Shown here: piece by piece, positions 4,749 to 44,585 of the stretch | How the letters are laid out: the number at the start of each line of letters is the position of its first letter | How positions within the stretch are numbered: the first letter of the stretch is position 1 | Assembly: GCA_963782055.1 (NCBI GenBank) | Contig: CAWAIF010000003.1 | Location: forward strand, 4,416,001-4,480,000 | Direction of reading: 5' to 3' | Source: an uncultured delta proteobacterium | Lineage (GTDB): Bacteria > Myxococcota_A > Polyangia > Polyangiales > Polyangiaceae | DNA: 64,000 bases | Made by a program: the position numbers and the translations under genes | The notes under the pieces: generated by a model | Seen by the model: only the letters and a program-made list of their open reading frames with translations | Databases searched by the model: none | What the model was told of the DNA's origin: nothing

Positions 4749-4848
4749 CACCCTGGTCCGTCCTTCCAGTGACACCGGACGGCCCCACTTCGCATAAGAT
4801 GGATTCCGTAAACTTTCGCGCCCGACCGCGCTAGGATTTCCTATGCGC
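4749..4848 (+). repeat. 100-bp dif-like unit, copy 1
   Basis: CACCCTGGTCCGTCC...ACTTCGCATAA GATGGA TTCCGTAAACT...TCCTATGCGC. Confidence 0.97.
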
Positions 4849-4850
4849 CC

Positions 4851-6770
4851 ATGACCGACCTCGACAGCCCCCTGTCGACGGTGCCTCACCCCAACGACAC
4901 CCAGGCCATGCGGGCCTACACGCAGACCTACGACTACGACGAGGTCGGCAACATCCTCGGGATGTTCCACACCGCCACCAGCGCCAACTGGAACCGCCAC
5001 TACACCTACGACTCCTCCAGCAACAAGCTCGCCACGACCGAGATGCCCGGCAATCCCTCCGGCGGCCCCTACTCCGGCACCTACTCCCACGACGAGCGCG
5101 GCAACATGACGGCCATGCCGCACCTGTCCACCATCGCGTGGGACTGGGCCGACCGCATGCAGAGTGCGGACCTCGGCGGAGGTGGTACGGTCTACTTCGT
5201 GTACGACTCCGCCGGCCAGCGCGTGCGCAAGGTCTGGGACAAGACGAGCGCCCTGCGCGACGAGCGCATCTACCTCGGCGGGTACGAGATCTGGCGGGAG
5301 TCGACCGTCTCCGGCGGGACTGCCACGGTGCAGGAGGAGCGACAGACCCTGCACGTCATGGACGACGTGCGGCGCATCGCGATGGTCGAGACCCTCACGG
5401 TGACGGGCGGGAGCACCGTGACCTCGCCGACGTCACGGCAGCGCTACCAGCTCGCCGATCAGCTCGAGTCCACGTGCGTCGAGGTCAAGGAGGACGGGAG
5501 CATCATCTCCTACGAGGAGTACTTCCCCTTCGGGGCAACGTCCTTCCGGTCGGAGACCGGGGAGGTCAGCAAGCGCAGGTACCGCTACAACGGCAAGGAG
5601 AGGGACGAGGAGACCGCGCTGCACTACTACGGGGCGCGGTACTACGCGGCGTGGCTTGGGAGATGGACACGACTAGACCCGGTCACCGTTGACGGGCCAA
5701 ACCGTTATGCCTATGTCCGTAACAACCCCGTTCGCATCCGAGATCCTCACGGTCTGGCGGGAGACCCAAGACTCACCAGCCTCGAAAATGCAGCACGGGG
5801 CGCGGTTGCCGTGGTAGCCGGGAGAGTCGGGATTGACCCCGCAGCAGCAGCAAGCGCAACCGCAGACCTAGAACAGCGCGCAAGGGACGCACTGTTCCGA
5901 CAGCAGCGGCAGCACGTGGGGCCGCGACACCTAACGAGCCTCCGACGCACAGACGAGCTAAACGTTCAGACCCCTACGGAGAAACTCCACCTTCCAAAAG
6001 TGCGCTCTGCCACTACACAGGCGTTGACTGCGGGCGGCGAGGGCGGCAACGGCAGCGTACGCATACGCACATACCCAACTGGTCGACCAATACACACTGT
6101 ACCGGATCCGGTGGGACAACCTGGCGCGATCGAGGGAATGATCCCGGTGTGGGGGGCAGGCCGGACTGCCATTGATGAACTCCAGCGCAACCACCCGGTG
6201 GCGGGGATCTTCTGGTCCGGCATGGCGATCAGCGACATCTTCTTCGTCAAAGGCGCAGTGGTCGGGGGCGCGCGTGCGCTTGGCCGTCTCGCGTTCCGGG
6301 AGCTTCTTGAACAGAGCGAGCGAAATAGCGCAGAAGGGTTAGCGCGAGCGGGAAGAACTCTTTATGAGGGAGAAGCTTCGCGCGGCCTGGAGAGCCTCAA
6401 ACAGGAGCAGGGTGCAGGACGAGCCGTGGCGACACAGGAAGAGAGGGCCCTTTTCGATGCAAGCAAGACTACCGACACACTTTACCAGGGAACCGCAACA
6501 ATAGACAACAACGGCGCGCGGTTCATAAAGGCCACGTCGATTTTGGCAAAGATGCAGCTTACCGCAGTCCAGAAGGCTCAAGTAGTTCAGGGCTTTGCAA
6601 CAAAGATTGGGTTCGGATTCGGAGCGGAAGGTCTCGTCAGCAAAGATGCGTATCTACTGCTCCGTTCAGAGGACCACAGATACGCCTTCCGCTTCCTTAG
6701 GGCGACCGGCGCCATTGAGTACGGAAAGTTCGATATGGCAACCATGAACTATGCGTGGAAGCAACTATGA
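4851..6770 (+). CDS. Rhs core fragment with C-terminal putative toxin domain (5'-truncated)
   Basis: YD repeats, RYRYNGKERDEET, YYGARYY, PNRYAYVRNNPVRIRDPHG, then lower-GC tail; starts mid-Rhs 2 bp after repeat. Confidence 0.9.
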   Translation: MTDLDSPLSTVPHPNDTQAMRAYTQTYDYDEVGNILGMFHTATSANWNRHYTYDSSSNKLATTEMPGNPSGGPYSGTYSHDERGNMTAMPHLSTIAWDWADRMQSADLGGGGTVYFVYDSAGQRVRKVWDKTSALRDERIYLGGYEIWRESTVSGGTATVQEERQTLHVMDDVRRIAMVETLTVTGGSTVTSPTSRQRYQLADQLESTCVEVKEDGSIISYEEYFPFGATSFRSETGEVSKRRYRYNGKERDEETALHYYGARYYAAWLGRWTRLDPVTVDGPNRYAYVRNNPVRIRDPHGLAGDPRLTSLENAARGAVAVVAGRVGIDPAAAASATADLEQRARDALFRQQRQHVGPRHLTSLRRTDELNVQTPTEKLHLPKVRSATTQALTAGGEGGNGSVRIRTYPTGRPIHTVPDPVGQPGAIEGMIPVWGAGRTAIDELQRNHPVAGIFWSGMAISDIFFVKGAVVGGARALGRLAFRELLEQSERNSAEGLARAGRTLYEGEASRGLESLKQEQGAGRAVATQEERALFDASKTTDTLYQGTATIDNNGARFIKATSILAKMQLTAVQKAQVVQGFATKIGFGFGAEGLVSKDAYLLLRSEDHRYAFRFLRATGAIEYGKFDMATMNYAWKQL

Positions 6771-7261
6771 TAGACGAGAATCGCAGATGGCTAGCAATCT
6801 ACTTGGAGTGCGCAGGGCCTGGTGCGGCCAGCGCCCGAGCACTCGAACAGTACGGCGCGAGCGCTGTCGCCGCAGCCCGCGCACACTGGGCCGGGCGCTT
6901 TCTCATTGGGCGCACATCTATCGGAGATATACTTGATGAACTGGGCAAGCCGGAGCGCGCCGAGGGAGGCAGACTCTACTACCGACTACCTACGAGGGAG
7001 AGCTACTACTACATGCTGACGGCCAAGAACGACATTTTGGTCGGCGCGGCATTCGTACGAAAGGAAGGGGTCCGACGGCGCCCGTTTAGTCAGTTCGATG
7101 CGAGTGCGGCAGAGTTGCTTCGGCGAATGGGCGCGACTCAAGAGGAGGTCTTTGCTTGGCTTGGGCCGCCCGCGGAGGAGTTTGGTTGGTGGCCGAATGA
7201 GACGTGGAGGTACGGTGACGGCACGTTTCTCGAATTTCGACACGGAATGATGGACTTGTAG
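6767..7261 (+). CDS. Putative Rhs immunity protein
   Basis: ATGA overlap with the Rhs stop; 164 aa. Confidence 0.6.
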   Translation: MIDENRRWLAIYLECAGPGAASARALEQYGASAVAAARAHWAGRFLIGRTSIGDILDELGKPERAEGGRLYYRLPTRESYYYMLTAKNDILVGAAFVRKEGVRRRPFSQFDASAAELLRRMGATQEEVFAWLGPPAEEFGWWPNETWRYGDGTFLEFRHGMMDL

Positions 7262-7376
7262 ACTCAACTGGGCATCGTCCCGCGGCATGTTGAAAGTTGA
7301 GGTGTGTTTGAACAGCGTCACGTAGATCGAGGGAGAGACGCGCCGATCTGGTCACGTTCCGCGAGGGGCGGATAAA

Positions 7377-9031
7377 CCTGGATTTCGCTCGCACCGGTCC
7401 TCGGAGCGGGCGCGGGCGTCGCACGGGTCGGCGCGTCCCGGATCGGTGCCCGGCACGGCTGCCGCGCACGATAAGCGCGTAGCGTGAGCACACGTCCCCC
7501 TTTCCCCCGCCTCGCAAACCAAGTTGTGTGCCGGTCAATTCAGCATCGGGCGAGGAGCGAGTCGCAGCTGCCAGCGACCCCCGACGCGCAGCAGGCGAGC
7601 GGGCACCAGGACGCAGGCGCGACGCATCCAGGTCGCGCGCCAGTGTGCCACGGCGGTCCCCGGGCACAGCGACAGCACCCAGCGACGCATCAGGTTGTAG
7701 GCCAGCAGCTTGAGCAGCAACGCGGCCTCGTTGGCGTCGAAGGTGTTCGTCGGGGCGTAGCCGATGCCGAAGGCGTTCTTGAGCTCGGCGAAGAGCGGCT
7801 CGATCCCCGCCCGGCCGTCGTAGAAGCGCGCCACGTCGTCGGCGTCGCGGTCGTGATCGTTGGTCAGGTAGACCTGCGCCGAGTAGTCGAGGTCCTCCCA
7901 GAGGTGGACCTGCTTGCCGGTGTCGCGCTCGCTGGTCCGCACCGCCACCACGCGCCAGCCGGGAGGCCAGTCGTCGCGGCGGAAGTCCACCACGGCGACC
8001 TGTCGCGTCGGCTCGCCGAAGGCATCGCGATCGGTCGTGCGCCAGCGCGTCGTGCGCGCGACGGCGCTCATCAGGTTGGCGGTCTGCCGCATCTTCGCCA
8101 CGAAGTACGCCCCGCCGCGCTCGACCGCAGAAAGCAGCGCTGCAGACTCTCCGCCGGAGTCGATCCGCATCGTCACCACGGCTTTCGGCGCGGCGCGATG
8201 CAGCCGTCCGATCCACTGCGCGATGTCCTCGACGTCGTCCTCGCCGATGCCCGTGTCGCCCGGCCGCAGCCGCGCTCCGAGCATCGTATCGGTCTCGGCG
8301 ATGCGCGCCAGGATCGGGTGATAGCTCACGCGGCCGTGGTAGCGCGGGTTGTAGCCGACGTGCGCTCCCTCTTGCTCGCCGAACAGCGGCGTCACCGTCG
8401 TGTCCACGTCGATGGTCAGCTCCTTGGCGCGGAGCTTGGTGAGCGGCTCGAGCCCCTGCTCGGCCATCAGCTCTTCCAGCCTCTCGAGCTCGCGGCCCCT
8501 GAAGCGCCGCAGATCGTCGTAGAGCACGTCGATGCTCGGCACGATGCCGCCGGCGAGGTGCCGGAACACCGGGTCCGTCGCGAGCACCTCGAAGTCGAAG
8601 ATGCGCCGCGCTCCCGCCACCGACGCGTCGAGCAGAAGCTGAATCTGCGCCGCCATCGGATAGACCACCTGCGCTCCGGTCTTGAGGTGCCCGAAGTCCC
8701 GCCGAAGCCGACGCCCGAGTCCAATCCCCTGCACGAACGCGTTGAAGGACGCGAGGCCCCCGAGTCCCGACAACCTCGGGTCCGGCCGCCCCACCTCCAG
8801 CCCGCTCGCGCGTGCTCGCCGCACCCGGCGATTCGCCCGCTGCCACTCCCACCCCTCGGGACGCTTGCTTCCGAGCTGCTCTCGTCGCACCTTCTGGGTG
8901 CTCGGCGTGTCGCTTGCTGTTGTCTTCATCAACTCCATCAACCGGCGCGCCGAGCGCTAAATTCCAGGGCGCGCGTCGATTTTCAGGAGCGTGCATCATG
9001 CAACCGTCGCCGGAATGGAGCGAAATCTAGG
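7377..9031 (-). mobile_element. IS1380-family element, complete
   Basis: IRs CCTGGATTTCGCTC / GAGCGAAATCTAGG; 5-bp TSD ATAAA. Confidence 0.92.
7535..8941 (-). CDS. IS1380-family transposase
   Basis: TIDVDTT, GYNPRYHGRVSYHP, MRIDSG, FYDGRAGIE..FAELK. Confidence 0.92.
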   Translation of the reverse strand: MMELMKTTASDTPSTQKVRREQLGSKRPEGWEWQRANRRVRRARASGLEVGRPDPRLSGLGGLASFNAFVQGIGLGRRLRRDFGHLKTGAQVVYPMAAQIQLLLDASVAGARRIFDFEVLATDPVFRHLAGGIVPSIDVLYDDLRRFRGRELERLEELMAEQGLEPLTKLRAKELTIDVDTTVTPLFGEQEGAHVGYNPRYHGRVSYHPILARIAETDTMLGARLRPGDTGIGEDDVEDIAQWIGRLHRAAPKAVVTMRIDSGGESAALLSAVERGGAYFVAKMRQTANLMSAVARTTRWRTTDRDAFGEPTRQVAVVDFRRDDWPPGWRVVAVRTSERDTGKQVHLWEDLDYSAQVYLTNDHDRDADDVARFYDGRAGIEPLFAELKNAFGIGYAPTNTFDANEAALLLKLLAYNLMRRWVLSLCPGTAVAHWRATWMRRACVLVPARLLRVGGRWQLRLAPRPMLN

Positions 9032-9462
9032 ATAAACGAAGCCCCTCAGAAGACTTGTCCGAAGACCTTCTGAGGGGCTCGCCTCCGAGTTGTCGAGACC
9101 GGAGGTGGACATGTTCGACCAGATCGAGCTTGGGAGCGAGTTTTTCGAGGGGCTGACCAAGATCGACGAGCGGATCGCGCGGGCGGTGGCCGCACGGGGC
9201 TGCGTGTGGTGCGGGGGCCCACTGCACCGCGCGGACCATCCCCGCAAGCCACGCGGGCTGATCGCGGTCGCCGCGGAGGCCTTGGGTCGCCTGTAATACC
9301 CCAGCGAGACTCCGGAGCCCCCTCATCAATCCGTCACGTCCAGAATCGCGCCCCCTCCGCCCACACGTCTCCCGTCCTCCCGTCACGCGCGAGACCGCCA
9401 TGTCAAAGACCGAGGCGCCGGACCGACTTCCTCTCCGGCGCCCATCGCTACCCGCTGTTGAA

Positions 9463-10788: not shown

Positions 10789-10888
10789 CACCCTGGTCCG
10801 TCCTTCCAGTGACACCGGACGGCCCCACTTCGCATAAGATGGATTCCGTAAACTTTCGCGCCCGACCGCGCTAGGATTTCCTATGCGC
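10789..10888 (+). repeat. 100-bp dif-like unit, copy 2
   Basis: Identical to copy 1. Confidence 0.97.
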
Positions 10889-11154: not shown

Positions 11155-11254
11155 CACCCTGGTCCGTCCTTCCAGTGACACCGGACGGCCCCACTTCGCA
11201 TAAGATGGATTTCGTAAACTTTCGCGCCCGACCGCGCTAGCATTTCCTATGCGC
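11155..11254 (+). repeat. 100-bp dif-like unit, copy 3
   Basis: 2 substitutions vs copy 1. Confidence 0.97.
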
Positions 11255-15863: not shown

Positions 15864-15963
15864 CACCCTGGTCCGTCCTTCCAGTGACACCGGACGGCCC
15901 CACTTCGCATAAGATGGATTTCGTAAACTTTCGCGCCCGACCGCGCTAGCATTTCCTATGCGC
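15864..15963 (+). repeat. 100-bp dif-like unit, copy 4
   Basis: Identical to copy 3. Confidence 0.97.
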
Positions 15964-17279: not shown

Positions 17280-17479
17280 CACCCTGGTCCGTCCTTCCAG
17301 TGACACCGGACGGCCCCACTTCGCATAAGAGGGATTTCGTAAACTTTCGTGCCCGACAGCGCTAGCATTTCCTATGCGCCACCCTGGTCCGTCCTTCCAG
17401 TGACACCGGACGGCCCCACTTCGCATAAGATGGATTTCGTAAACTTTCGCGCCCGACCGCGCTAGCATTTCTTATGCGC
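17280..17479 (+). repeat. Head-to-tail dimer of the 100-bp unit (copies 5 and 6)
   Basis: 17280-17379 and 17380-17479 with no intervening DNA: CCTATGCGC|CACCCTGG. Confidence 0.97.
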
Positions 17480-17791
17480 CTCGAGGGTGACCGACTGGCC
17501 ACCGAGGCAGATGTCAGCGTCGAGAGCGGGCCCCGTCAACGTCCCGAACGCGGGGACGTAGTACGGCTGCGCCATCACGGCGGCGGAGGTGCACGCGGGG
17601 ATGCCCACGAGCCCCGCGTCGCCCGCGTCGAAGGCGTCCGGCTTCACGCCCGCCTCGGAGACGCAGGTCGCTGCATCCTGGATGGCGGGGGCACCGGCAT
17701 CGACGGGCGCGAGCGGTCGGCCGTGCCGCGAGCTGCAGGCCACGAGCGCGGCGGCGACGGCCACCACGCACAGGATGTTTCGAGCCTCCAT
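17480..17791 (-). pseudogene. Lipoprotein, 3'-truncated by repeat
   Basis: Lipobox LVAC, DAG motifs; frame runs into copy 6. Confidence 0.6.
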
Positions 17792-17944
17792 GTCGTCCCT
17801 CCGACGCAGCATGCCACCCGTCGCGGCGCAGTGCTACGCGCTCACCCGCCACGACGTGGCCATCCTCGTCTTCCGGCCAGTCTCCGCGTCGCGCTGACCA
17901 GACGCGGCCCGGTGCGGCTCTCCCTCAACGGCTGTCGAACGTCG

Positions 17945-21618: not shown

Positions 21619-21718
21619 CACCCTGGTCCGTCCTTCCAGTGACACCGGACGGCCCCACTTCGCATAAGATGGATTCCGTAAACTTTCGCGCCCGACCGCG
21701 CTAGGATTTCCTATGCGC
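21619..21718 (+). repeat. 100-bp dif-like unit, copy 7
   Basis: Identical to copy 1. Confidence 0.97.
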
Positions 21719-23681: not shown

Positions 23682-23781
23682 CACCCTGGTCCGTCCTTCC
23701 AGTGACACCGGACGGCCCCACTTCGCATAAGATGGATTTCGTAAACTTTCGCGCCCGACCGCGCTAGCATTTCTTATGCGC
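23682..23781 (+). repeat. 100-bp dif-like unit, copy 8
   Basis: Ends TTCTTATGCGC. Confidence 0.97.
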
Positions 23782-24512: not shown

Positions 24513-24612
24513 CACCCTGGTCCGTCCTTCCAGTGACACCGGACGGCCCCACTTCGCATAAGAGGGATTTCGTAAACTTTCGCGCCCGACCGCGCTAGGA
24601 TTTCATATGCGC
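24513..24612 (+). repeat. 100-bp dif-like unit, copy 9
   Basis: Spacer GAGGGA. Confidence 0.97.
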
Positions 24613-25376: not shown

Positions 25377-25425
25377 CACCCTGGTCCGTCCTTCCAGTGA
25401 CACCGGACGGCCCCACTTCGCATAA
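25377..25425 (+). repeat. Left half of 100-bp unit (copy 10), ends at the XerC-like arm
   Basis: ...ACTTCGCATAA then foreign sequence; right half at 31012. Confidence 0.95.
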
Positions 25426-26053
25426 GTAAGAGTCGATTGCGTGAGCGCGCCGGGTCGCGGCGGCGGTCGCGTGGCGCGGGTGCGCGGTCGCGAAATCGAC
25501 GGTTGGACGAAGCCGGTGCGCGGCAGCGGCGAGGCGGTGGCCTCGGAGCCCTATGGGGAAGTTGGCGGCGTGTGGGTCACGTGTGCGGGTGCGCGAGGTG
25601 CGGAGCGGGCGGCGGGACGGCGCTCGACGCGGGCGTCCCGGAGCGCGCAGCGGGCAGCCGTGCGTGCTCGGAGGCCGGGTTTTCGTGGCGTGGATGGACA
25701 GGGGCCTGGGCCGCACTCGTGGAGCGAGCGCAGTGGAGCACGACGCGGGGAGATCATGCGGCCCCCGGCGGGTCGCGAGCTCGGGGCTCCGGCAGCGCGG
25801 TACGCACGAGGGCAGGCGTGTGGCAAGCGGGGCAGCGGTGCAGGTCGATGCCCGCGATTCGCAGCAGCAGGTCGGCGGCGTCGACACGGCGCACCGGTCG
25901 CGCAGCGGGCGCCGCGTGCGGACCCAGTCTGCGGCGTGCGGTCTCGAGGCGCGTGGTGGCGTGGCTGGCGGAGTGCAGGGTAACCCATCGGTGATCTGAC
26001 GTACTCCCCGGCGGGACGGATCCCCGCTACGCGCATTGGCGGAGGTCAGCGCG

Positions 26054-26386
26054 ATGGGAAAGCGGGACGGTGCGCGGCAGTGGCGGCAGTGGACGGAGCA
26101 GCAGGCGCGGGCGGCCCTCGCGGAGCTCGCGGCGAGCGGTGAGAGCGCGGCGGGCTTCGCGCGGCGCAAGGGCGTGTCGTCGCAGCGGCTCGCGTACTGG
26201 AGGGGCCGCCTCGCGCGTCCGGCGAGCACGGAGTTCGTGGCCGTGGAGCTTGCGGGCGACAGCCTGGCGCGGTGGATGGAGATCGTCGTTGGGGGTGTGG
26301 TCGTTCGCGTGCGGGAGGAGCTGGACGCGGAGCGGGTGGCGCAGCTGGTGAGGGCGCTCGGGCGGCAGGTGGGCGGCGCGTGCTGA
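26054..26386 (+). CDS. IS66 accessory protein TnpA
   Basis: [24 protein letters not shown]. Confidence 0.85.
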
Positions 26387-26754
26387 CGCTGCCGCCCGGC
26401 GTGCGCGTGTTCGTCGCGACCGAGCGCGTCGACGGGCGCAAGGGGATCGACGGGCTCTCGGTGCTCGTGCGGTCACGGTTCGCCGAGGACCCGCTCTCGG
26501 GGACGATGTTCGTCTTCTTCTCGCGTCGCGCCGACCGCGTGCGAGTCCTGTACTGGGATCGCGACGGCTACGTGCTCATCACCAAGCGGCTGGAGAAGGG
26601 AAGCTACCGGTTGCCGTGGCCCGGCGAGGGAGGGCGCGCGGTCATCGAAGCGGCGGAGCTGCTCCTGGTGCTCGAGGGGATCGAGCTTCGCGGGGCCGGC
26701 CGGCGGATGCGCTGGTCGCCCTCCCCCCGTGTGCGACCGGCGCCCACTTTGTGA
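26380..26754 (+). CDS. IS66 accessory protein TnpB
   Basis: [30 protein letters not shown]. Confidence 0.92.
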
Positions 26755-26822
26755 GATCCATCTTCGTGGCTGCGATCGAATCGTCTTTCCATCGGGCGCG
26801 CCCTGCGGCAAAGAGGATCAGC

Positions 26823-28424
26823 GTGTCCGCGTCGAGCAACAAGCACCCGCCCATCACCAGCGCGATCGAGCCCGATCTCGGCGCGGTGAGGAAGTTCATC
26901 GCGGACATGATCGCCAGGGGCGCCGTCGCCGAGCTGATCGCTGCGGTCGTGGGGTTGCTCGTGCGCATGCGCGAGCTCAACACGGAGTTGATGCGCAGGG
27001 TCGCGAGCAAGTCGCGCAGGCGCCCGCCCAACGAGGCGATGCGGCGCCTGCAGATGGAGCTGCCGTTTCTGTGCGCGCCCGCCGCCAACGATGGCGCCAA
27101 ACCCGGCCTCCCCCGGGAGAAGAAGCCGAGGAAGCGCGGCGCCCACAAGCCCACGCCGCATGGCCGGCCCAAGCTGCCGGCGCACCTGCCGCGCGTCCCC
27201 AACGTGCTCCTGGTCCCCGCCGCCGATCGCGTGTGTCCGGACTGCGACGTCGCGCTCACGCGCGTCTGCCTCAAGACCACGGCGGAGAAGCTCGACGTCA
27301 GGCCGTCGGAGTACATCGTCGTGCAGACGCAGCTCGAGACGTGCTCCTGTCCCAAGTGTCGCCGCTACCTCGTGACCGCGCCCACCCCGGACGAGGTCGT
27401 GGATCGTGGGCTGCTCGGCGACGAGCTTCTCGTGCAGGCGCTGGTGGATCACTACCAGGACGCGGTGCCGTGGGAGCGGATGGAGCGCAACGCGCGACAA
27501 CAGGACGTGCCGCTCGCCGCCAACACGGTGGCGTCCTCCGTCGGGAAGGTGATCGACCTGTTCGACCCCGTCGTGCGCCACATCCGCGAGGCGTGCCTGT
27601 CGTCGAGCTTCACCGCGCTCGACGCGACGCGCATGCCCGTGCTCGACCCGACGCATCCGCTCGGCATCAAGAGCGGCGCGCTCTGGCTCATCGAGGGGGA
27701 TCATCGCCATGCGTGCTTCCTCTACGCGCCGAGCGGCCACGCCGAGCACCTGAAGAAGTTCTTCGAGGGCCGCACGCTCCGCAGCGTGATGTGCGATGGG
27801 TCGCCCACCAACAACTGCGTCGAGCACGCCGGCGGCCATCGTGGCGGCTGCAACGCCCATGGCCGGCGCGGCCTGGTCGAGGCGCTTCGTCGCGGCGACG
27901 CGCGCGCCGTGCCCGGGCTGGAGCTCTACGCCAAGATCTTCCACGTCGACGCCCAGTCCAGGCGCGCAGGCGAGAGCATCGACCGGCGCTTCGAGCGGCG
28001 CCTCGAGGACAGCGCGCCCATCGTGGCCGAGCTTCGCGCCTGGCTCTCCCTGCGCCTCGCCGACGTCGAGCCCAGGAGCGTGCTCGGCCAGGCGCTCCGC
28101 TACCTCGATCGCCAGTGGTCGCGCCTCACGGCCTTCCTTCGCGATCCGCGCATGGAGCTCACCAACAACGAGGTCGAGGCCGGACTTCGGACCTGGGTCC
28201 TCGATCGCAAGACGTGGCTCTTCGTCGGCCACGAGCAGAGCGCACGCCGCGCCGCCGACGCCCTCACCCTCCTCACCACGTGCAAGAAGATGGCGATCGA
28301 CCCGCGCGCCTACTTGCGCGACACCCTCGCGAGGATCCTCGCTGGTGAGAAGAGCCTGGCGGCGCTGCTGCCGGAGACCTACGCGGCCTCGCGCGCCGAG
28401 CGGGCGCCACCCCGCGCCGCGTAG
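26823..28424 (+). CDS. IS66 transposase TnpC
   Basis: LPAHLPR, CPDC, DAT, CNAHGRR, TNNEVE, RKTWLF. Confidence 0.93.
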   Translation: MSASSNKHPPITSAIEPDLGAVRKFIADMIARGAVAELIAAVVGLLVRMRELNTELMRRVASKSRRRPPNEAMRRLQMELPFLCAPAANDGAKPGLPREKKPRKRGAHKPTPHGRPKLPAHLPRVPNVLLVPAADRVCPDCDVALTRVCLKTTAEKLDVRPSEYIVVQTQLETCSCPKCRRYLVTAPTPDEVVDRGLLGDELLVQALVDHYQDAVPWERMERNARQQDVPLAANTVASSVGKVIDLFDPVVRHIREACLSSSFTALDATRMPVLDPTHPLGIKSGALWLIEGDHRHACFLYAPSGHAEHLKKFFEGRTLRSVMCDGSPTNNCVEHAGGHRGGCNAHGRRGLVEALRRGDARAVPGLELYAKIFHVDAQSRRAGESIDRRFERRLEDSAPIVAELRAWLSLRLADVEPRSVLGQALRYLDRQWSRLTAFLRDPRMELTNNEVEAGLRTWVLDRKTWLFVGHEQSARRAADALTLLTTCKKMAIDPRAYLRDTLARILAGEKSLAALLPETYAASRAERAPPRAA

Positions 28425-28486
28425 CCCTCACGGACATGCGCTCCGGGGGGCTGACGCGCCGCCGGGGCCGTGCTTTCGTGCACGTC

Positions 28487-28945
28487 ATGTTGCCGCTCGA
28501 AGGCTCGTTGCTGGAGAAGTTGCGCAAGATCGAGGCGCTCCACGCGGGCACGCGCGTGGATGGCGAGCGCGAGGCCGCGCGGCGCGCCGCCGAGCGCATT
28601 CGTGCCCGGCTCGCCGAGCTTCGCGGCCGCGAGCAGGACACCCTGCTCCACTACACCCTGCCCGATCCCTGGACACGCAGGCTCTTCGTCGCGCTGTGTC
28701 GCCGCTACGGTCTCGTCCCCTTTCGCGAGAGCGGCCGCCGGTACACCACCGTCCAGGTGCGCGCACCCAAGGCCTTCCACGACCACACGCTCTGGCCGCA
28801 GTTCCTCGCGCTCTCCGAGGAGCTCAACGCGCACCTCGACGAGCTCACCACCCGCGTCATCCGCGAGGCGATCAACGACGACGTGAGCGACCCGCAAGAC
28901 GGCGCTCCGCCCAAGGCGCTGCCCGAGCCGACTCGCGGCGCCTGA
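28487..28945 (+). CDS. IS66 passenger hypothetical protein
   Basis: LLEKLRKIEALHAG..GEREAA; inside the IS66 IRs. Confidence 0.7.
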   Translation: MLPLEGSLLEKLRKIEALHAGTRVDGEREAARRAAERIRARLAELRGREQDTLLHYTLPDPWTRRLFVALCRRYGLVPFRESGRRYTTVQVRAPKAFHDHTLWPQFLALSEELNAHLDELTTRVIREAINDDVSDPQDGAPPKALPEPTRGA

Positions 28946-29985
28946 CGCCGTCATGGCTCCAGCCGACGGCGGGCGGACAGCACGCGCCAGTCGCCGGATC
29001 AACAGGCCCCGTGGACGTCGATCACCGATGGGTTACGGTGCAGGCCGTAGTGGCGGATCTTGACGAAGCCGCGCGGCAGCACGTGCTGGACGAAGCGCGC
29101 GAGCAGCTCCTCGGCCGGGACGGTGACCGACTTGCCGTCTCTGGTGCGGAAGGTGACGCCGCGCTCGCCCATCGAGACGAAGCGGTGGTTGGAGATGCCG
29201 ACGCGGTGAGTGTAGCGACCGAGGTAGCGGATGACCTGAGCGGGGCCGCCGAAGGGTCGCTTGGCGTAGACGACCCAGGCCTTGCGTCGGAGCGCCAGCA
29301 GGTCGACGCCGCCCAGGTCGACGAGGCCGCGCGCGTGGGCGCGCTCGAGAGCGGCGAGCATCTTGCCGCGAAAGAGCGCGCCCATCACGCGCACGGGGAA
29401 GAGGAAGCGACGGCGCGCGCGCACCCAGCGCGCGGCGTGGCCGGTGAGTCCGCCGCCGGTGACGATGGCGTGCACGTGGGGGTGGAAGAGCAGCGCGCGC
29501 GTCCAGGTGTGCAGGACCATCGTGACGCCGAGCTCGGCGCCGAGCCACTTCGGATCCCGCGCGAGGGTGGCCAGCGTGTCGGCCGCGCTCGCGAAGAGCA
29601 TGTCGAAGACCCGCGCGCGCGAGCGCCGCGCGACGGCGCGCAGCTCGGCGGGGAGCGTGAAGACGACGTGGAAGTAGTGCACGGGCAGAATGCGCTCGAG
29701 CCGCGTGGCGACCCACCGCGCCTGCGCGAGCGACTGGCACTTGGGACAGTGCCGGTTGCGGCACGAGTTGTACGACGGTCGCTCGAGCCCGCACGCGGTG
29801 CACACGTCCAGATGTCCGCCCAGCGCGGCGGTCCGGCATCGCTCGATCGCCCGCAGCGCCGACCGCTCCTCGGGACGCAGCACGCGGCCGCCGGCGAAGG
29901 CCTCGCCGTGGGCGCGCACCACGTCCGCGAGCTCGATGGGCGCCGCGCGCGTGCGCGCGGGCGCACACGACGGGTGCATCGGGGC

Positions 29986-30831
29986 TCAGGGCAGCGCGTC
30001 GAGGGGGCTCTGAATCGACTGCACGCGGGCGGTGCTCACGTGCAGGTAGGCCATCGTGCTCCTGAGCGACGCGTGCCCGAGCAAGACCTGCAACGTGCGA
30101 AGGTCGGTCCCTGCGTCGAGCAGGTGCGTGGCGAAGCTGTGGCGCAGCGTGTGCGGCGACACGCGCCGGGTGATGCCCGCGCGCCGCGCCGCCTTGAGGA
30201 TCGCCCGGTGGACGGCCGCGCGCGTGAGGAGCGTCCCGGGCACGCGCCCCGGAAACAGTTGCGGTCCTGCGGGTCGTGACGCCTTCCAGTACGCGCGCAG
30301 CGTCGCCAGCAGCCTCGCGCTGAGCATCACGTAGCGCTCACGCCCGCGCTTGGTGTGCCGCACGTGCAGGAGCATCCGCTTCGGATCGATGTCGTCCACC
30401 CGGAGCTTGCACACCTCGCTCACGCGCAGCCCCGCCCCGTAGGCGAGCATCACCAGGGCCCGGTGCTTGTGGCTCGTGAGCGACGCGAGCAGCCGCGCCA
30501 CCTCCGCGCTCGTCAGCACCACCGGCACGTGCATCGGCACCCGCATGCGCGCCATCCCCAGCGTCGCCTCCGGCCGCTCCAGCGTCACCTCGTAGAGAAA
30601 CCTCAGCGCGGCCGCGTGCACGTTGACCGTCAGCGCCGCCAGCCTGCGCTCCGCCACCAGGTGCAAAAGGAACGTCCGGATCTCCGCCGCCCCCAGCGCG
30701 CACGGCGACCGCCCGTGGTACTGCGCGAACCGCCGCACGCACCCCACGTACGTGGCGATCGTGTTGGCGCTCATCCCTCGCAGCGCGAGGTCCTCGCTCA
30801 TCGTGTCCCGCAGTCTTCGCTTCGCACCCAT
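29986..30831 (-). CDS. Tyrosine recombinase (SAM-like N-terminus)
   Basis: GAGLRVSE, TKRGRER, HTLRHSFATH, LLGH, Y; full catalytic set. Confidence 0.95.
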   Translation of the reverse strand: MGAKRRLRDTMSEDLALRGMSANTIATYVGCVRRFAQYHGRSPCALGAAEIRTFLLHLVAERRLAALTVNVHAAALRFLYEVTLERPEATLGMARMRVPMHVPVVLTSAEVARLLASLTSHKHRALVMLAYGAGLRVSEVCKLRVDDIDPKRMLLHVRHTKRGRERYVMLSARLLATLRAYWKASRPAGPQLFPGRVPGTLLTRAAVHRAILKAARRAGITRRVSPHTLRHSFATHLLDAGTDLRTLQVLLGHASLRSTMAYLHVSTARVQSIQSPLDALP

Positions 30832-31011
30832 CGCGGCCTCCTTCGGCTCCGCGCGCGCCCACGAGCGGGCGGCGCGCGCCGCAGGATCGCCCGCATCACG
30901 GCACGCGAGGGCTACGAGGCGGGCTCGTCAGCGCGCACACGGCTCGCGGGGCTCCCGGGTCGCGAGCGAGCTTGATGCGGAGCCACGCTGCCGCGCAGCG
31001 GCTTCGTCCAA

Positions 31012-31062
31012 GATGGGTTTCGTAAACTTTCGCGCCCGACCGCGCTAGGATTTCCTATGCGC
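31012..31062 (+). repeat. Right half of 100-bp unit (copy 10)
   Basis: GATGGG TTTCGTAAACT...CCTATGCGC preceded by element arm GCTTCGTCCAA. Confidence 0.95.
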
Positions 31063-34559: not shown

Positions 34560-34608
34560 CACCCTGGTCCGTCCTTCCAGTGACACCGGACGGCCCCACT
34601 TCGCATAA
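34560..34608 (+). repeat. Left half of 100-bp unit (copy 11)
   Basis: Ends TCGCATAA (the IS66 TSD). Confidence 0.95.
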
Positions 34609-36124
34609 GTCTCTGCTTAGCGGCCGGAAGACGGCCCGCGGCCCGGGCGTGACGTCGACCGTCGGAGGACTCGCCGGCTAGTGGGCAAAGACAGACGGAG
34701 GCGGCTTGCCGTGGAGGTGACTTTCGTACAGCCCGATGACGAAGCCCCGAAGCGGGAGCTGGCACTTGCGCCGCGTCTGCGTGATGCTCATCCAGTGCGC
34801 CAGGGTGGCGCTGCCGGCGGCCGAGCGCGTTCCGCCGGTCATCGCGCGGTGCCGCCCGTGGGCGCGGATGTCGCGTTCGGTCGCGTTGTTCGTGGCCGGG
34901 ACGTCGGGGCGGTCGATGAAGAGCGTCACCCCCACCTTGTGCTCGTCGAGGCGCTCCTGCAGCCGGACGATGTCCGGGAACTCCACGAAGTTGGTGCTGC
35001 TGATGAGATGGCCGAGGCGGATGCGCGCGCCTCGGCGCTGCTCGGGATCGCCGCTCGCCGCGGCGTGCTTGCCCGCGACGTAGAAGCCGATGAGTCGGTC
35101 GCGGAACTCCTCGGTCGCGGCGCACGGGGTGAGCTCGGCGATCTTCTTGGCCTCGCGGATGGTGTGCGCACCGCAGTAGGCGTGGGTCCAGCCGTCGTGA
35201 CTCGTGTACACGCCGTAGAAGTCGGTGCACAGGACTCCTTTGAAGCTCGCGCCGAGCATCGACTCGGCGACCCACGCGCCGCGCGACAGCTCGGCGCGGA
35301 AGACCGAGACGCGGTCGGTGCGCATCAGCCACATCCAACCCGGCACGCCGTCCTGTCGATGGCCGCTCTCGTCGAGGCCCGCCACGGGCGATGCGCGCAC
35401 CGCGTCGACCAGCTCGTCGTAGCTCGGCGCCGAGCGGCGTCGCAATCGGTCGAACATCTGCGCCAGGCCGCCGGTCGTGATCGAGATGCCGAGCCACTGT
35501 CCGAGGAACGCACTGATCTTGCCCAGCGGCATGTCGCGCTCGAAGCGCAGGTCCAGCGCCATCGCCTGCACGTTGGGGCCGAACGACACCGCGGCGACGC
35601 TCTTGCCCGCCGCCGGCGCGCCCGGCAGCTTCGCGACCACGCGCTTGTGGCACACCTCGCAGCTGCCGACGTGCGCCACGTGATGCGTCTGCCGCGGCTG
35701 CACCACTGGGATGTCGGTGACGACTGTGCTGTCCGTCTCGCCCGTCGCCACGACTGCCCCGCCACAGCTGCACGTCGCCGGCATCTCGTGCACGACTTCG
35801 TCGTCGACGTGGGCCGGTGCGGCGGGCCGCGATCCGACATGGCCCACCTTGCGGCCGCGCGGCTTGCCCGAGGGCGCCCGCCGACCCTCGGAGCGCGACG
35901 TCCGCCGCTTCCCGCGCTCCCGGAACCCGCGCTTCCACTCCTCGATCTCCTTGCGCAGCTTCGCCAGCTCTTCGCGAAGCGCGGCGTTCTCCTGCTCCAG
36001 CTCCTGGATCCGCTGCTCGGGCGTCACGTGATCCGGGATGCTCCCGATCAGGTCCCATGGAAAGAACTTCTCGCATCAGGAACGAAGAATGGACCCACAG
36101 TGTGCGACACCGCTAAGCAGACAC
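34609..36124 (-). mobile_element. Single-ORF IS66-family element inserted in the dif-like site
   Basis: IR GT(C/G)TCTGCTTAGCGG; 8-bp TSD TCGCATAA at 34601-34608 and 36125-36132. Confidence 0.93.
34678..36027 (-). CDS. IS66-family transposase
   Basis: Coiled coil, GLDESG, CTDFYGVY, CGAHTIRE, TNNATERDIR. Confidence 0.93.
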   Translation of the reverse strand: MTPEQRIQELEQENAALREELAKLRKEIEEWKRGFRERGKRRTSRSEGRRAPSGKPRGRKVGHVGSRPAAPAHVDDEVVHEMPATCSCGGAVVATGETDSTVVTDIPVVQPRQTHHVAHVGSCEVCHKRVVAKLPGAPAAGKSVAAVSFGPNVQAMALDLRFERDMPLGKISAFLGQWLGISITTGGLAQMFDRLRRRSAPSYDELVDAVRASPVAGLDESGHRQDGVPGWMWLMRTDRVSVFRAELSRGAWVAESMLGASFKGVLCTDFYGVYTSHDGWTHAYCGAHTIREAKKIAELTPCAATEEFRDRLIGFYVAGKHAAASGDPEQRRGARIRLGHLISSTNFVEFPDIVRLQERLDEHKVGVTLFIDRPDVPATNNATERDIRAHGRHRAMTGGTRSAAGSATLAHWMSITQTRRKCQLPLRGFVIGLYESHLHGKPPPSVFAH

Positions 36125-36183
36125 TCGCATAAGATGGGTTTCGTAAACTTTCGCGCCCGACCGCGCTAGGATTTCCTATGCGC
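36125..36183 (+). repeat. Right half of 100-bp unit (copy 11)
   Basis: TCGCATAA GATGGG TTTCGTAAACT...CCTATGCGC. Confidence 0.95.
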
Positions 36184-41643: not shown

Positions 41644-42303
41644 CATGGGGCTACGTTACTCAACGTGCGTGGGAAAGCGCAATTCTCGACAGCTGCCCGT
41701 TCCACCCGGAGGGCGGTTGCGGCCTCGAGAAGCTCGGGAGCTACCCCCGCGTCGAGCCCGCAGGCGTGCGCGTCGCGCGCTGGTGGTGCCCCAGGCAGCG
41801 GGCGTCGATCAGCCTCTTGCCGTCGTTCCTCGCGGCGCGGCTCTCCGGCACGCTCGCCGCGGTCGAAGACGTCGTCACCGCGGTGGAGGCCGCCGGCGGT
41901 GTCGCGGCGGCGGTGGACGCGGTGCACCCGCCGGACGCCGACGACGCCGTCGGGCTCGTGTGCGCGCTGAGGTCGATCCGTCGGCGGGCATCGGCGGTGC
42001 GCGCCGCGCTGCTCGCGATCGCGACGCTGATGCCCGAGCGGTTCGCAGGCGTCAGGCCGACGCTCGCCGCCTTCCGCGAGGCGCTCGGGTGCCATCGCGT
42101 GCTCGTCGTGCTGCGCGAGCTCGGCGAGCGGCACCTCGGTGCGTTGCCCGTCCCTCTCGGATTGCGCACGCGGGCGACCGGGTGACCGGGGGTCGCCGCG
42201 GCCGGCCCACACGAAAGGGTGCCGGCTGCCGGCGGCGATCTCGCCGAGCTTGCCGGCACGCCGCTCGGAAAGGGTCCGGGCGAGCGCACCGAAGGCATCC
42301 GCC

Positions 42304-43191: not shown

Positions 43192-43569
43192 AGCCACCCG
43201 CACCGGTCACCGACGACGTCGGGGGGCTCGCGCTCGTACCGCGGTGCCCCGGCGTCTCGCTCTTGTCCCACGGCTCCCACCGCGGGAAGCGATCACGCAG
43301 ACCGAGAGCGCAGCCCGGTGGCGTCACGACGGAGCGTGGGGCGCTGGCGGTGGAAGAGCGTGGGAGACAACATCTCGTCGATGACCTCGTCGGTCGCGTC
43401 GAACAGCGACCACTTCAGCGAGCTCGACCCGACGTTCAGCGCAAGGACACGATCCAGCATCACTCTCCGTGCGGTCGTTCACGCGGTGGTTCCGGGCGGA
43501 GGTCGGCGTCTCCCCGCATCGCCCCGCCGTGCCGCGGAGCGAGTCGCCAGACGCCGGAACGACGAGGTG

Positions 43570-43821
43570 CTTCGGGCCCCCGCACCAGACGCAGCCCCGC
43601 GCAGCCACCGCCCGGGCCATCGCCTCGTCGATCTTCGTCAGCCTCCCGAAAAACTCGCTCCCGAGCTCGATCTGGTCGAACATGTCCACCTCCGGTCTCG
43701 ACAACTCGGAGGCGAGCCCCTCAGAAGGTCTTCGGACAAGTTTTCTGAGGGGCTTCGTCTATCCGCCCCTCGCGGAACGTGACCAGATCGGCGCGTCTCT
43801 CCCTCGATCTACGTGACGCTG
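43570..43821 (-). mobile_element. Second copy of the unclassified transposon end; truncates the integrase
   Basis: Reverse complement of 7313-7376 + 9037-9220. Confidence 0.75.
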
Positions 43822-44362
43822 CTCACCAGTACGCGCGCAGCGCCTCGAGCAGTCGTGGGCTGAGCATCACGTAACGCTCGCGCCCGCGCTTGGTGTGGCG
43901 CACATGCAGCAGCATGCGCTTCGGATCGATGTCGTCGACGCGCAGCTTGCAGACCTCGCTGACGCGCAGACCGGCACCGTAGGCCAGCATCACGAGCACC
44001 CGGTGCTTGTCGGTCGCGAGCGCGCCGAGCAGCTTCTCCACCTCGACGTGCGTCAGCACCACCGGCACGTGCATCGGCACCCGCATGCGTGGCATCAGGG
44101 CGATCTCCTTGGGCCGCCCGAGCGTCACCGCGTACAGGAACTTCAGCGCCCCGGCGTAGACGTTGAACGTCGCGGCGGCCACCCGGCGCTCCTGCGCGAG
44201 GTGTAGCAGGAATGTGCGGATCTCGTCGGCGCCCATCGCGCACGGGGAGCGACGGAAGTGCTCGGCGAACTTCCGCGCGCACCGCACGTAGGCGTCGATC
44301 GTGTTGGCGCTCATGCCTCGCAGCGCCAGGTCCTCTCGCATCTTGTCGCGTAGTCTTCGCAT
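43822..44362 (-). pseudogene. Second tyrosine recombinase, 3'-truncated
   Basis: Close paralog of 29986-30831; stops after LRAYW, lacks HxxR/H/Y. Confidence 0.9.
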
Positions 44363-44533
44363 CGCGGCCTCCTTCGGCTCGCGCGCGCCCGAGAGCGGGC
44401 GGCGCGAAGACTCAGGATCGCAGGGGCGGGCAGGAGCTACGAGACGGACTCGCGCCGCCGCTGCGAGGGCGACCTGTCAAGCAGGCCACGGCGTCCATGC
44501 GAAGCGATGCTGCCGCGCAGTGGCTTCGTCCAA

Positions 44534-44585
44534 GATGGATTTCGTAAACTTTCGCGCCCGACCGCGCATAGGATTTCCTATGCGC
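44534..44585 (+). repeat. Right half of 100-bp unit (copy 12)
   Basis: Preceded by the same element arm GCTTCGTCCAA (44523-44533). Confidence 0.93.

What the first reader, a model, noticed from the sequence alone, without database searches (positions are those of the whole stretch)
4749..44585. Array of 100-bp units, each carrying a dif-like site, separating kb-scale captured DNA
Seen: an exactly 100-bp non-coding unit in direct orientation at 4749, 10789, 11155, 15864, 17280, 17380, 21619, 23682 and 24513, split copies at 25377/31012 and 34560/36125, and a half copy at 44534. Intervening cargo is 0 to ~8 kb of unrelated DNA, many pieces being truncated genes. Left and right flanks of a copy never belong to the same gene and there is no conventional TSD, so these are not simple MITE insertions. 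Inference: a gene-capture array that is neither CRISPR nor an integron. The unit inserts in arbitrary DNA, and tyrosine-recombinase (Xer-like) exchange between units excises and concatenates the bracketed segments. This would also offer a route for how dif modules arise.
Basis: partly seen in the sequence, partly recalled or inferred. Interest (0 to 1): 0.95.

Follow-up and report, generated by a model that had tools for sequence, protein, structure and literature searches.

The report
dif-mimic landing pads of IS91-recombinase element
The 100-bp repeat is a small mobile "landing pad" that imitates the chromosome's own dimer-resolution site (dif) and hosts a rolling-circle jumping gene carrying an integron-like recombinase; pads have piled up in one orientation in a junk-rich island, where they mark broken and reshuffled DNA.

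Summary
There are nine 100-bp copies at the stated coordinates (95-100% identical, all + strand), plus the split and half copies. None has a duplication over 2 bp, and their flanks are unrelated.

- **dif mimic.** The unit's centre copies the lineage's true dif, which I located 0.86 Mb away at the GC-skew peak.
- **Split copies.** One is a 2.6-kb IS91-family element (Y2 transposase plus IntI/Xer-like tyrosine recombinase) sitting exactly at the XerC-arm/spacer border, with an IS66 nested inside. The other is an IS66-type insertion with an 8-bp duplication.
- **Occupancy.** All 13 copies of that element's left end in the genome lie in a pad, and empty and occupied pads share three haplotypes.
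- **Sister species.** It has the same design: its empty pad and the right junction share a 6-bp spacer, and its left junction carries the same or a near-identical one. That is tyrosine-recombinase logic.
- **Flanks.** Many are deletion scars or truncated duplicates (kdpD', an IS, a 284-aa gene, Rhs pieces).
- **Capture.** Capture by pad-to-pad exchange is possible (uniform orientation, one split insertion site, a sandwiched 340-bp copy) but unproven. No cassette occurs twice and no circle junction was found.
- **Terminus.** There is no clustering at the terminus.

This is a new variant of known kinds (IS91 family, IMEX-like).

The parts
4749..4848 (+). Empty pad (100-bp unit). The dif mimic ACTTCGCATAA-GATGGA-TTCCGTAAACT lies at 4787-4814.
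10789..10888 (+). Empty pad. Its left flank is an IS4-like copy cut at base 1336 of 1664.
11155..11254 (+). Empty pad.
15864..15963 (+). Empty pad.
17280..17479 (+). Two pads in tandem with no cargo between them. They differ at 5 positions, so this is one copy inserted after the ...GCGC end of another.
21619..21718 (+). Empty pad. Its right flank is one half of an insertion site whose other half lies at C3 5244668.
23682..23781 (+). Empty pad. Its left flank is an Rhs fragment that stops at the pad.
24513..24612 (+). Empty pad.
25377..31062 (+). Occupied pad. Layout: left half 25377-25426; IS91-family core 25427-25979 and 29038-31012; right half 31013-31062. A 3-ORF IS66 element is nested at 25980-29037.
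   Evidence: joint 25972->29038
29986..30831 (-). Tyrosine recombinase, 281 aa, of IntI/Xer type.
   Evidence: Pfam; NCBIfam TIGR02249 at 198.9 bits (cut-off 265); PDB matches 4a8e and 2a3v
28999..29979 (-). IS91-family Y2 HUH transposase. Its C-terminus is cut by the nested IS66; intact copies elsewhere are 385 aa.
   Evidence: NF033538 at 371 bits (cut-off 125)
34560..36183 (+). Pad interrupted by a 1.5-kb single-ORF IS66-family IS, with an 8-bp duplication CGCATAAG and inverted ends.
43812..44585 (+). Remnant of a diverged core (about 80% identity; recombinase fragment at 43823-44362) with its right pad half at 44524-44585.
52297..52395 (-). Diverged pad, 87% identity.
55698..55797 (-). Diverged pad, 75% identity.
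4849..6770 (+). Cargo: Rhs C-terminal fragment (core domain plus a variable tail) that begins at the pad's edge. Paralogues lie at C3 5.247-5.254 Mb.
17480..17819 (-). Cargo: the first 115 codons of a copy of a 284-aa gene (C3 6961338-6962192). The rest is nowhere in the genome.

Best explanation
The 100-bp unit is a non-coding mobile 'landing pad'. Its central ~28 bp imitate the host's dif site: the XerC arm is identical and the XerD arm has two inner changes. Its outer 40-50 bp are element ends: a hairpin on the left, and on the right a subterminal palindrome ending in GCGC.

A 2.5-kb IS91-family rolling-circle element sits precisely at the XerC-arm/spacer border of the mimic (after ...CGCATAAG). 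It encodes a Y2 HUH transposase and an IntI/Xer-like tyrosine recombinase.

Inferred steps:
- The recombinase moves the coding core in and out of pads. It may act on the folded single-stranded circle that the HUH enzyme makes, as in CTXphi.
- The HUH transposase spreads pads, with or without the core, to new sites after a C or CT, without duplication.

The 'array' is a pile-up of at least 17 same-orientation pads in an accessory island full of other insertion sequences. Flanks are uncoupled because DNA beside or between directly repeated pads has been lost, and perhaps exchanged, by pad-to-pad recombination.

Shown: anatomy, dif mimicry, occupancy, truncated flanks. Inferred: which enzyme does which step, and how the flanks were uncoupled.
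For: **The true dif and the mimic.**
- The true dif is a single perfect site at C3 3558763, at the cumulative GC-skew maximum.
- Single-copy dif sites TCGCATAA-GATGCA-TTATGTAAAC are found in 5 of 5 genus genomes, with 0 control matches. Four family genomes show the same kind of site.
- The pad reads TCGCATAA-GATGGA-TT(C/T)CGTAAAC.

**Occupancy.**
- The core's left end occurs 13 times and always follows a pad left half; 11 of these halves are whole and 2 are cut by other elements.
- Protein identities: NF033538 at 371 bits against a cut-off of 125; the recombinase is nearest to integron integrase and XerA models and to PDB 4a8e and 2a3v.
- Host XerD and a XerC-like gene exist, together with 9 intact element recombinases.
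- At pad positions 58/87 the haplotypes are C-G 10, T-C 7, T-G 2 in 19 empty pads, and T-G 4, T-C 4, C-G 1 in 9 occupied right halves. This implies repeated interconversion.

**Sister species (G004 = G074).**
- The empty pad is CTTCGCATAA-CGGGCG-TTCCGTAAAC.
- The right junction of two copies on one contig is GGCTTCGTCCAA-CGGGCG-TTCCGT....
- The only left junction seen (a copy on another contig) is ...CGCATGA-CGGGCG-TTTAATC..., and that copy's own right junction has CAGGCG, a 5-of-6 match.
- Spacers differ by lineage: GATGGA, CGGGCG, CAGGCG, GGGGCG, GGCGCG.
- The terminal motifs CA... and ...CTAYNCNC are conserved.

**Folding.** The core's circle junction folds as a forked hairpin: -69.0 kcal/mol against -46.0 +/- 2.8 for shuffles, z -8.3; for L015, z -5.6.

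**Pad junctions.**
- No duplication over 2 bp in 25 copies.
- 30 of 30 left flanks tallied by eye end in C or CT; one diverged left half in that listing ends in G and one off-register entry was not tallied. GC accounts for 16 of the 30, against a genome GC-dinucleotide frequency of 0.14.

**Scars.**
- kdpD is cut at Pfam position 101 of 210 at pad C3 4412889-4412988, and the remainder is nowhere in the genome.
- An IS copy is cut at base 1336 of 1664.
- A copy of a 284-aa gene stops at aa 115.

**IS91 biology read in passages of PMC13181058:** no duplication, a target tetranucleotide, subterminal palindromes, single-stranded circles, and one-ended transposition.
Against: - In this genome the left junction lacks the spacer and second arm that the sister species has (CGCATAA-GT-AAGAG against CGCATGA-CGGGCGTTTAATC-AAGAG). 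Recombinase-driven excision here is therefore doubtful, and an HUH cut after TAAG/CAAG fits as well.
- No circle junction exists in the assembly.
- I found no clear example of a pad as a simple insertion in an otherwise intact gene. The joined-flank open-frame test is too noisy in 69% GC DNA.
- Deletion alone does not explain why 17 of 18 and 17 of 17 pads in two clusters point the same way.
- Deletion alone also does not explain a 340-bp piece, 100% identical to C2:3479-3818, that lies between two pads.
- Of 10 right-flank sources, 4 do not fit the pad's own insertion rule even if a 1-bp overlap is allowed.
- Which transposase moves the pads is unknown. A second IS91-like element abuts the pad's left end in 3 copies here and 2 of 3 in the sister species.
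Confidence: 0.6

Rival explanations
1. One reading: a gene-capture array. Recombination at the dif mimic between two direct pads excises a circle (one pad plus the DNA between them). The circle re-enters at any other pad, so arbitrary DNA is collected and concatenated between same-orientation pads. This resembles IS26 translocatable units or pdif modules, but is driven by a Xer/IntI-type recombinase.
For: - Integration of such circles must give direct repeats, and 17 of 18 pads at 4.411-4.461 Mb are + while 17 of 17 at 5.177-5.265 Mb are -.
- The left flank of the pad at C3 5244667 and the right flank of window pad 21619 are the two halves of one site. That site is contiguous in two empty paralogues (5247796 and 5250752, at the hairpin GGTACGC|CGGAGGCGTACC). 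It was the only such pair among 57 continuations tested.
- A 340-bp piece, 100% identical to C2:3479-3818, is bounded on both sides by pad ends.
- Cargo at 15964-17279 is a circular permutation (P-Q-pad) of Q-pad-P at C3 1.40 Mb, at 76-86% identity.
- Recombinase-type sites with matching spacers are present.
Against: - None of 31 right flanks is shared between copies. Only 3 of 32 left flanks are, and those are a neighbouring IS91-like element.
- No circle junction is present.
- The right flank of the pad at 5244568 is not the Rhs continuation that a simple excision predicts.
- Many cargo pieces are truncated genes or other insertion sequences rather than units that look selected.
- The kdp operon beside the array is simply cut.
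- The same hairpin could have been hit twice independently.
Confidence: 0.28
2. ISCR-like capture by one-ended rolling-circle transposition. Replication starts at one pad end, misses the other end, and carries neighbouring DNA to a new site. Repeated events next to existing pads then build the array.
For: - The IS91 family does this at 1-14% of events (passages of PMC13181058).
- In the sister species an empty pad (L026) and a full copy (L013b) share the right half plus 682 bp of right flank at 99.6% identity.
- The tandem pads at 17280/17380 show insertion directly after another pad's GCGC end.
Against: - In this genome none of 31 right flanks is shared.
- The source loci of duplicated cargo carry no pad.
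Confidence: 0.1
3. Assembly artefact: a repeat-induced chimeric assembly joins unrelated DNA at each unit.
For: Only short metagenome contigs were available, and none bridges a pad by 31 letters on both sides.
Against: - The window lies in a 7.0-Mb contig of a 3-contig assembly, and a 100-bp repeat is trivial for such an assembly.
- Copies differ by SNPs.
- The same architecture, both empty and occupied, occurs in an independent assembly of a sister species.
Confidence: 0.02

Closest known systems
IS91 family (IS91, IS801, IS1294, ISCR), including the little-studied members that carry a tyrosine recombinase
   Same: - A Y2 HUH transposase over the family cut-off.
- No target duplication.
- Unlike ends with subterminal palindromes.
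- The same tetranucleotide class at the target (TAAG|) and at the far end of the core (CAAG|).
- Recombinases of IS91 elements are placed next to IntI in preprint 10.1101/542381 (passage read).
   Different: - The core always sits in a dif-mimicking pad.
- Empty pads outnumber cores and form arrays.
- A role for the recombinase has not been described in the papers I could search.
IMEX elements (CTXphi, TLCphi, VGJphi, gonococcal island) that integrate at dif
   Same: - A dif-type attachment site.
- Crossover at the XerC-arm/spacer border.
- A degenerate XerD-side arm.
- A rolling-circle HUH enzyme in the same element, as RstA is in CTXphi.
- A forked hairpin at the circle junction.

The CTXphi features are from abstracts in the listing and from recall.
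   Different: - It carries its own recombinase.
- It does not use the true dif, which is intact, but about 30 portable copies of a mimic far from the terminus.
pdif (dif) modules of Acinetobacter plasmids
   Same: Short XerC/D-type sites bound unrelated DNA segments.
   Different: - Here the sites are chromosomal.
- They are all in direct rather than alternating orientation.
- Each is embedded in a 100-bp unit with its own ends and is linked to a transposase-recombinase element.
Integron cassette arrays and CALINs
   Same: - A same-orientation repeat separates unrelated DNA.
- The recombinase's best family model is integron integrase.
   Different: - The score is below the family cut-off (198.9 against 265) and matches in two stretches, so the IntI-specific insert is lacking.
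- The unit does not fold as an attC-like hairpin (z -1.3 to -1.4).
- There is no attI or Pc.
- Cargo is often truncated genes.
IS26 arrays built from translocatable units
   Same: Direct-orientation copies, no duplications, unrelated segments between copies.
   Different: Those depend on a DDE transposase and a 820-bp IS. Here the repeat is 100 bp and non-coding, with a recombinase site.

Membership tests
IS91 family (the 2.5-kb core) | Y2 HUH transposase with a zinc-binding N-terminus | tested here: met
   Pfam Y2_Tnp 5.6e-48 and Zn_Tnp_IS91 3.3e-30; NF033538 at 371 bits against a cut-off of 125.
IS91 family (the 2.5-kb core) | No target-site duplication; unlike ends with subterminal palindromes; a target tetranucleotide like the far-end cleavage tetranucleotide | tested here: met
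   The core lies between ...TAAG| and ...CAAG|. There is a palindrome GCTGC-CGC-GCAGC before the right end and a 75-nt hairpin at the left. The rule itself was read in passages of PMC13181058; the strand convention was not checked.
IS91 family (the 2.5-kb core) | Rolling-circle transposition through single-stranded circles | not testable with these tools
   Needs experiments.
MITE (the 100-bp unit) | Terminal inverted repeats and a target-site duplication | tested here: not met
   The ends CACCCTGG... and ...CCTATGCGC are not inverted repeats. Duplications are 0-2 bp in 25 copies.
Integron | IntI over the family cut-off, attC hairpins, attI and Pc | tested here: not met
   TIGR02249 scores 198.9 against 265. 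The unit folds with z -1.3 to -1.4. No attC finder was available.
IMEX | Integration at the chromosomal dif by host XerCD, with no recombinase of its own | tested here: not met
   The true dif at C3 3558763 is unoccupied. The element encodes its own recombinase.
pdif/dif modules | 28-bp XerC/D-type sites | tested here: met
   An 11-6-11 layout; the XerC arm equals the host dif and the XerD arm has 2 mismatches.
pdif/dif modules | Modules bounded by sites in alternating (C/D, D/C) orientation, on plasmids | tested here: not met
   All 14 hits between 4749 and 44585 are + and lie on a 7.0-Mb chromosomal contig.

The most novel reading that the evidence does not exclude
A two-tier cassette system. 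A rolling-circle transposase seeds portable dif mimics into arbitrary DNA. An integron-integrase-like recombinase, possibly acting on folded single strands as IntI does on attC and XerCD on CTXphi, then moves both its own coding core and any DNA bracketed by two pads between pads. This would be a chromosomal route by which dif modules, and perhaps attC-type arrays, arise.
Probability: 0.22. Interest if true: 0.9.

Novelty: new variant of a known kind. Interest (0 to 1): 0.62.

Why it matters
- **The recombinase's job.** IS91-family elements with a tyrosine recombinase are catalogued, but I found no paper in the searchable library that says what the recombinase does. This locus offers a concrete, testable answer: it couples the element to portable copies of the host's dif site.
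- **A missing step for dif modules.** It shows how Xer-type sites can be scattered through a chromosome by a transposon. That is the step missing from accounts of how dif modules form.
- **A natural test bed.** With about 30 pads and 9 intact recombinases in one genome, it can be asked whether recombination between such sites reshuffles DNA.
- **Integron relevance.** The link between an HUH single-strand enzyme and the closest relatives of integron integrase bears on the origin of integron recombination on folded single strands.

Tried and rejected
- **Empty sites in relatives.** DNA searches of 20 relatives with 4000-23999 and 23700-26000, and a protein search of 60 family genomes with ORF 24027-24512, found no orthologous sites. 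The kdp operon beside the array is only 42-48% identical to relatives' KdpA, so synteny cannot be used.
- **Sequencing runs.** One soil metagenome run (share 0.17) kept as contigs; no pad was bridged, so there is no verdict on the assembly or on excision.
- **Metagenome scans.** The 28-mer of the pad gave 0 matches. The degenerate dif-mimic pattern gave 2 loci that look like ordinary single dif-type sites.
- **Terminus clustering.** Rejected.
- **Orientation and replication direction.** Clusters on the same side of dif differ in orientation. GC skew and gene-strand bias are too weak to reveal local inversions.
- **Joined-flank open-frame test for simple insertions.** Too many false positives at 69% GC.
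- **tblastx of cargo against the 1.40-Mb locus.** Mostly noise. Pfam found nothing in that locus's P, Q and neighbouring ORFs.
- **The unit as an attC-like or other known RNA/DNA structure.** Fold z -1.3 to -1.4; no Rfam family.
- **The unit as a MITE of the neighbouring IS91-B element.** No likeness of ends.
- **Circle junction in the assembly.** 0 hits.
- **Right-flank asymmetry.** My first reading, that right flanks never obey the insertion rule, was weakened. With a 1-bp overlap, 6 of 10 fit.


Full report
**1. The observation**

A blastn of window 4749-4848 against the whole 7.58-Mb assembly gives 67 hits. The window is C3:4416001-4480000.

They are 95-100% identical and all on the + strand.
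- The split copies are 25377-25426 with 31002-31062, and 34560-34609 with 36125-36183. The half copy is 44524-44585.
- In 25 copies the longest flank duplication is 2 bp.
- The series is longer than reported. More pads lie just upstream of the window, and diverged or partial copies lie at 49-63 kb, several on the - strand.
- Genome-wide there are 19 near-identical whole units, in about seven clusters. Orientation is uniform within clusters: 17 of 18 + at 4.411-4.461 Mb, and 17 of 17 - at 5.177-5.265 Mb.

**2. The dif-like site is a true mimic**

A search of 60 family genomes with the unit found no whole unit. It did find single 30-bp matches to unit positions 39-72 in four genomes. These read TTCGCATAA-GATGNN-TTATGTAAACTTT.

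- The same pattern occurs once, perfectly, in this genome at C3 3558763: CGCATAA-GATACA-TTATGTAAA.
- That position is the maximum of cumulative GC skew. dnaA is on another contig.
- Five of five genus genomes have exactly one such site, with no reversed-pattern control matches.
- So this site is the lineage's dif. The unit carries TCGCATAA-GATGGA-TT(C/T)CGTAAAC: an identical XerC arm, another spacer, and two inner changes in the XerD arm.
- The window is 0.86 Mb from dif, so the terminus-clustering idea fails.
- The host has XerD (343.5 bits, over the cut-off) and a XerC-like gene.

**3. What the split copies are**

The insert at 34610-36124 is a single-ORF IS66-family element with inverted ends and an 8-bp duplication CGCATAAG. 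It has about 13 other copies.

The insert at 25427-31012 is a 2.5-kb element, itself broken by a three-ORF IS66 at 25980-29037.

- It encodes, on the - strand, a 281-aa tyrosine recombinase (29986-30831) and an IS91-type Y2 transposase (28999-29979).
- The transposase passes NCBI's IS91 model (371 bits against 125).
- The recombinase is nearest to the integron-integrase and XerA models but below both cut-offs. Its closest solved structures are 4a8e (XerA-like) and 2a3v (IntI4).
- A preprint places the recombinases of IS91 elements beside IntI (10.1101/542381, passage read).
- Intact 2.6-kb copies lie at, for example, C3 5977204-5979818 and 5238336-5240954.
- The genome holds 6 full and 4 internally deleted Y2 genes of this type, and 9 intact recombinase genes.
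- Every one of the 13 copies of the core's left end follows a pad left half, 11 whole and 2 cut by other elements.
- The junctions are ...CACTTCGCATAAG|TAAGAGTCG... and ...GGCTTCGTCCAAG|ATGGATTTCGTAAAC....
- The empty unit is exactly the occupied form minus the core. The core sits at the XerC-arm/spacer border.

**4. Who moves the core?**

Relatives of the recombinase (74-76% identity) were found in Myxococcales MAGs. One of them (G074) is the same assembly as G004, a species of the window's genus.

Their right inner site is conserved: GCTGCCGCGCAGC-GGCTTCGTCCAA, then a 6-bp spacer, then TT(C/A)CGT. The spacer differs by lineage.

That genome also has empty pads. The sites compare as follows:

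| Site in G004/G074 | Sequence |
|---|---|
| Empty pad (L026, L032) | CTTCGCATAA-CGGGCG-TTCCGTAAAC |
| Right junction (L013 copies) | GGCTTCGTCCAA-CGGGCG-TTCCGT... |
| Left junction (L015 copy, another contig) | ...CGCATGA-CGGGCG-TTTAATC... |

- L015's own right junction has CAGGCG, a 5-of-6 match to its left spacer.
- A common spacer in the empty site and both junctions is the signature of tyrosine-recombinase exchange, not of an HUH cut.
- In the window's genome the left junction is 11 nt shorter and lacks that spacer and second arm. Here a cut after TAAG/CAAG by the HUH enzyme fits equally well, since the IS91 family's target resembles its far-end cleavage tetranucleotide (PMC13181058, passages).
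- Empty and occupied pads share all three haplotypes at positions 58/87: 10/7/2 among 19 empty pads, and 1/4/4 among 9 occupied right halves. Occupancy has therefore changed more than once, unless gene conversion did it.
- The core also carries an inverted copy of its right arm 75 nt inside its left end. In a circle the two would pair. The junction folds as a forked hairpin: -69.0 kcal/mol against -46.0 +/- 2.8 for shuffles, z -8.3; in the relative L015, z -5.6.
- This recalls the folded attachment site of CTXphi, another element that joins an HUH replication enzyme to Xer-type integration. That comparison rests on abstracts in the listing and on recall, and it is an inference.

**5. Are the pads themselves mobile?**

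- The boundaries are base-exact in 19 contexts.
- 30 of 30 left flanks that I tallied end in C or CT. One diverged left half in that listing ends in G, and one off-register entry was not tallied. GC accounts for 16 of the 30, against a genome frequency of 0.14.
- 23 of 25 right flanks begin with a pyrimidine.
- One pad lies directly after another's GCGC end, and the two differ at 5 positions.
- The right end has a subterminal palindrome (GCGCTAGGA-TT-TCCTA-T-GCGC) and the left end a hairpin.
- The terminal motifs are kept in the sister species although the rest of the halves differs.
- This behaviour is transposon-like and IS91-like. Which transposase acts is not known.
- A second, single-gene IS91-like element (1865 bp) abuts the pad's left end in 3 copies here and 2 of 3 in the sister species. 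Its own ends are unlike the pad's.

**6. The flanks**

Homology to paralogues stops exactly at pad edges and does not resume on the other side.

- An IS copy is cut at base 1336 of 1664.
- Rhs fragments stop at 4849 and 23681.
- A copy of a 284-aa gene ends at aa 115, and its remainder is nowhere in the genome.
- Just upstream of the window, kdpD is cut at Pfam position 101 of 210 by a pad. Its remainder is absent, and an intact paralogue lies at 2.35 Mb.
- These are deletion scars.
- The DNA between pads is a mix: other insertion sequences (IS4-like, IS256, IS66, IS21, a group II intron), Rhs orphan pieces, partial duplicates of loci at 6.95-6.96, 6.78 and 1.40 Mb, and unique sequence.

**7. 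Capture or scars?**

*For capture.*
- Orientation is uniform within clusters.
- The left flank of a pad at C3 5244667 and the right flank of window pad 21619 are the two halves of one site that is intact in two paralogues. It was the only such pair among 57 continuations tested.
- A 340-bp piece, 100% identical to C2:3479-3818, lies between the right ends of two inverted pads.
- One cargo segment is a circular permutation of a locus at 1.40 Mb.
- 4 of 10 right-flank sources do not fit the pad's insertion rule.

*Against capture.*
- No right flank is shared among 31 copies.
- There is no circle junction in the assembly.
- The partner flank predicted by a simple excision is not there.

*One-ended transposition.* This is known for the family. 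It is supported in the sister species by 682 bp of shared right flank at 99.6% identity, but by nothing here.

I therefore rank deletion and exchange between pads in an island first, capture by re-insertion second, and one-ended transposition third.

**8. Literature and earlier notes**

- Five full-text searches found no paper linking IS91-family elements to dif-type sites or to such arrays. Subscription papers and ISfinder/TnPedia texts are not in that library.
- My memory that ISfinder lists IS91 members with an integrase gene is recalled, not checked.
- Earlier notes of this scan on other genomes report IS91-plus-recombinase elements landing in dif-like or attC-like sites. They made me re-read the core as the IS91 element proper and the pad as its partner site. 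I checked that reading here only through the junction anatomy.

**9. Verdict**

The feature is real and is misread only in part. It is a new variant of known kinds: IS91 family, with IMEX-like use of a dif-type site. The capture idea remains open and testable.

Noticed in passing
C3 4409624-4411488 (just upstream of the window; locus L043 4624-6488), C3 5265263-5267127, C3 2741240-2742415: A second, single-gene IS91-like element (1865 bp) always abuts the left end of a pad. Its left end begins GGGTGTCCGG twice. A similar end abuts pads in the sister species (L015, L026).
   Followed up: partly
window 15964-17279 and C3 1398156-1401383: The cargo pieces P (16016-16328) and Q (16536-17041) lie as P-Q-pad in the window. 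At 1.40 Mb they lie as Q, a diverged pad (1399596-1399663), then P. This is a circular permutation at 76-86% identity. The ORFs have no Pfam family.
   Followed up: partly
C3 4411589-4411928 (upstream of the window): A 340-bp piece, 100% identical to C2:3479-3818, lies exactly between the right ends of two pads in inverted orientation. The C2 locus has no pad.
   Followed up: partly
window 21779-21975: A ~200-bp repeat with about 30 copies in the genome (82-97% identity). It lies upstream of Rhs orphan modules at 5.247 and 5.250 Mb.
   Followed up: no
C3 5244668-5253582: A tandem array of about 3-kb Rhs orphan modules (blocks X-A-B-C), paralogous to window 4849-5681, 21719-21975 and 23438-23681. 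A pad sits at the X|A hairpin of one module.
   Followed up: partly
window 39606-41650: A group II intron with a reverse transcriptase/maturase, with about 7 near-identical copies in the genome. It is inserted next to an IS (38166-39609) that has about 12 copies.
   Followed up: no
window 91-1824 and C3 4412985-4415529: A second kdp operon (kdpA, kdpB, truncated kdpD) whose KdpA is only 42-48% identical to that of genus relatives. It is probably acquired DNA.
   Followed up: partly
window 58893-60101: Five copies of a 186-201-nt repeat (65-72% identity) inside ORF 58218-60251. This is probably a repeated protein domain.
   Followed up: no
window 4843-4851, 24607-24618: The pad's right end reads AGGA-N6-ATG-CGC, pointing outward. 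Real-looking ORFs start 2-9 nt beyond it in two cases. The AGGA is polymorphic (G in 12 pads, C in 7).
   Followed up: no
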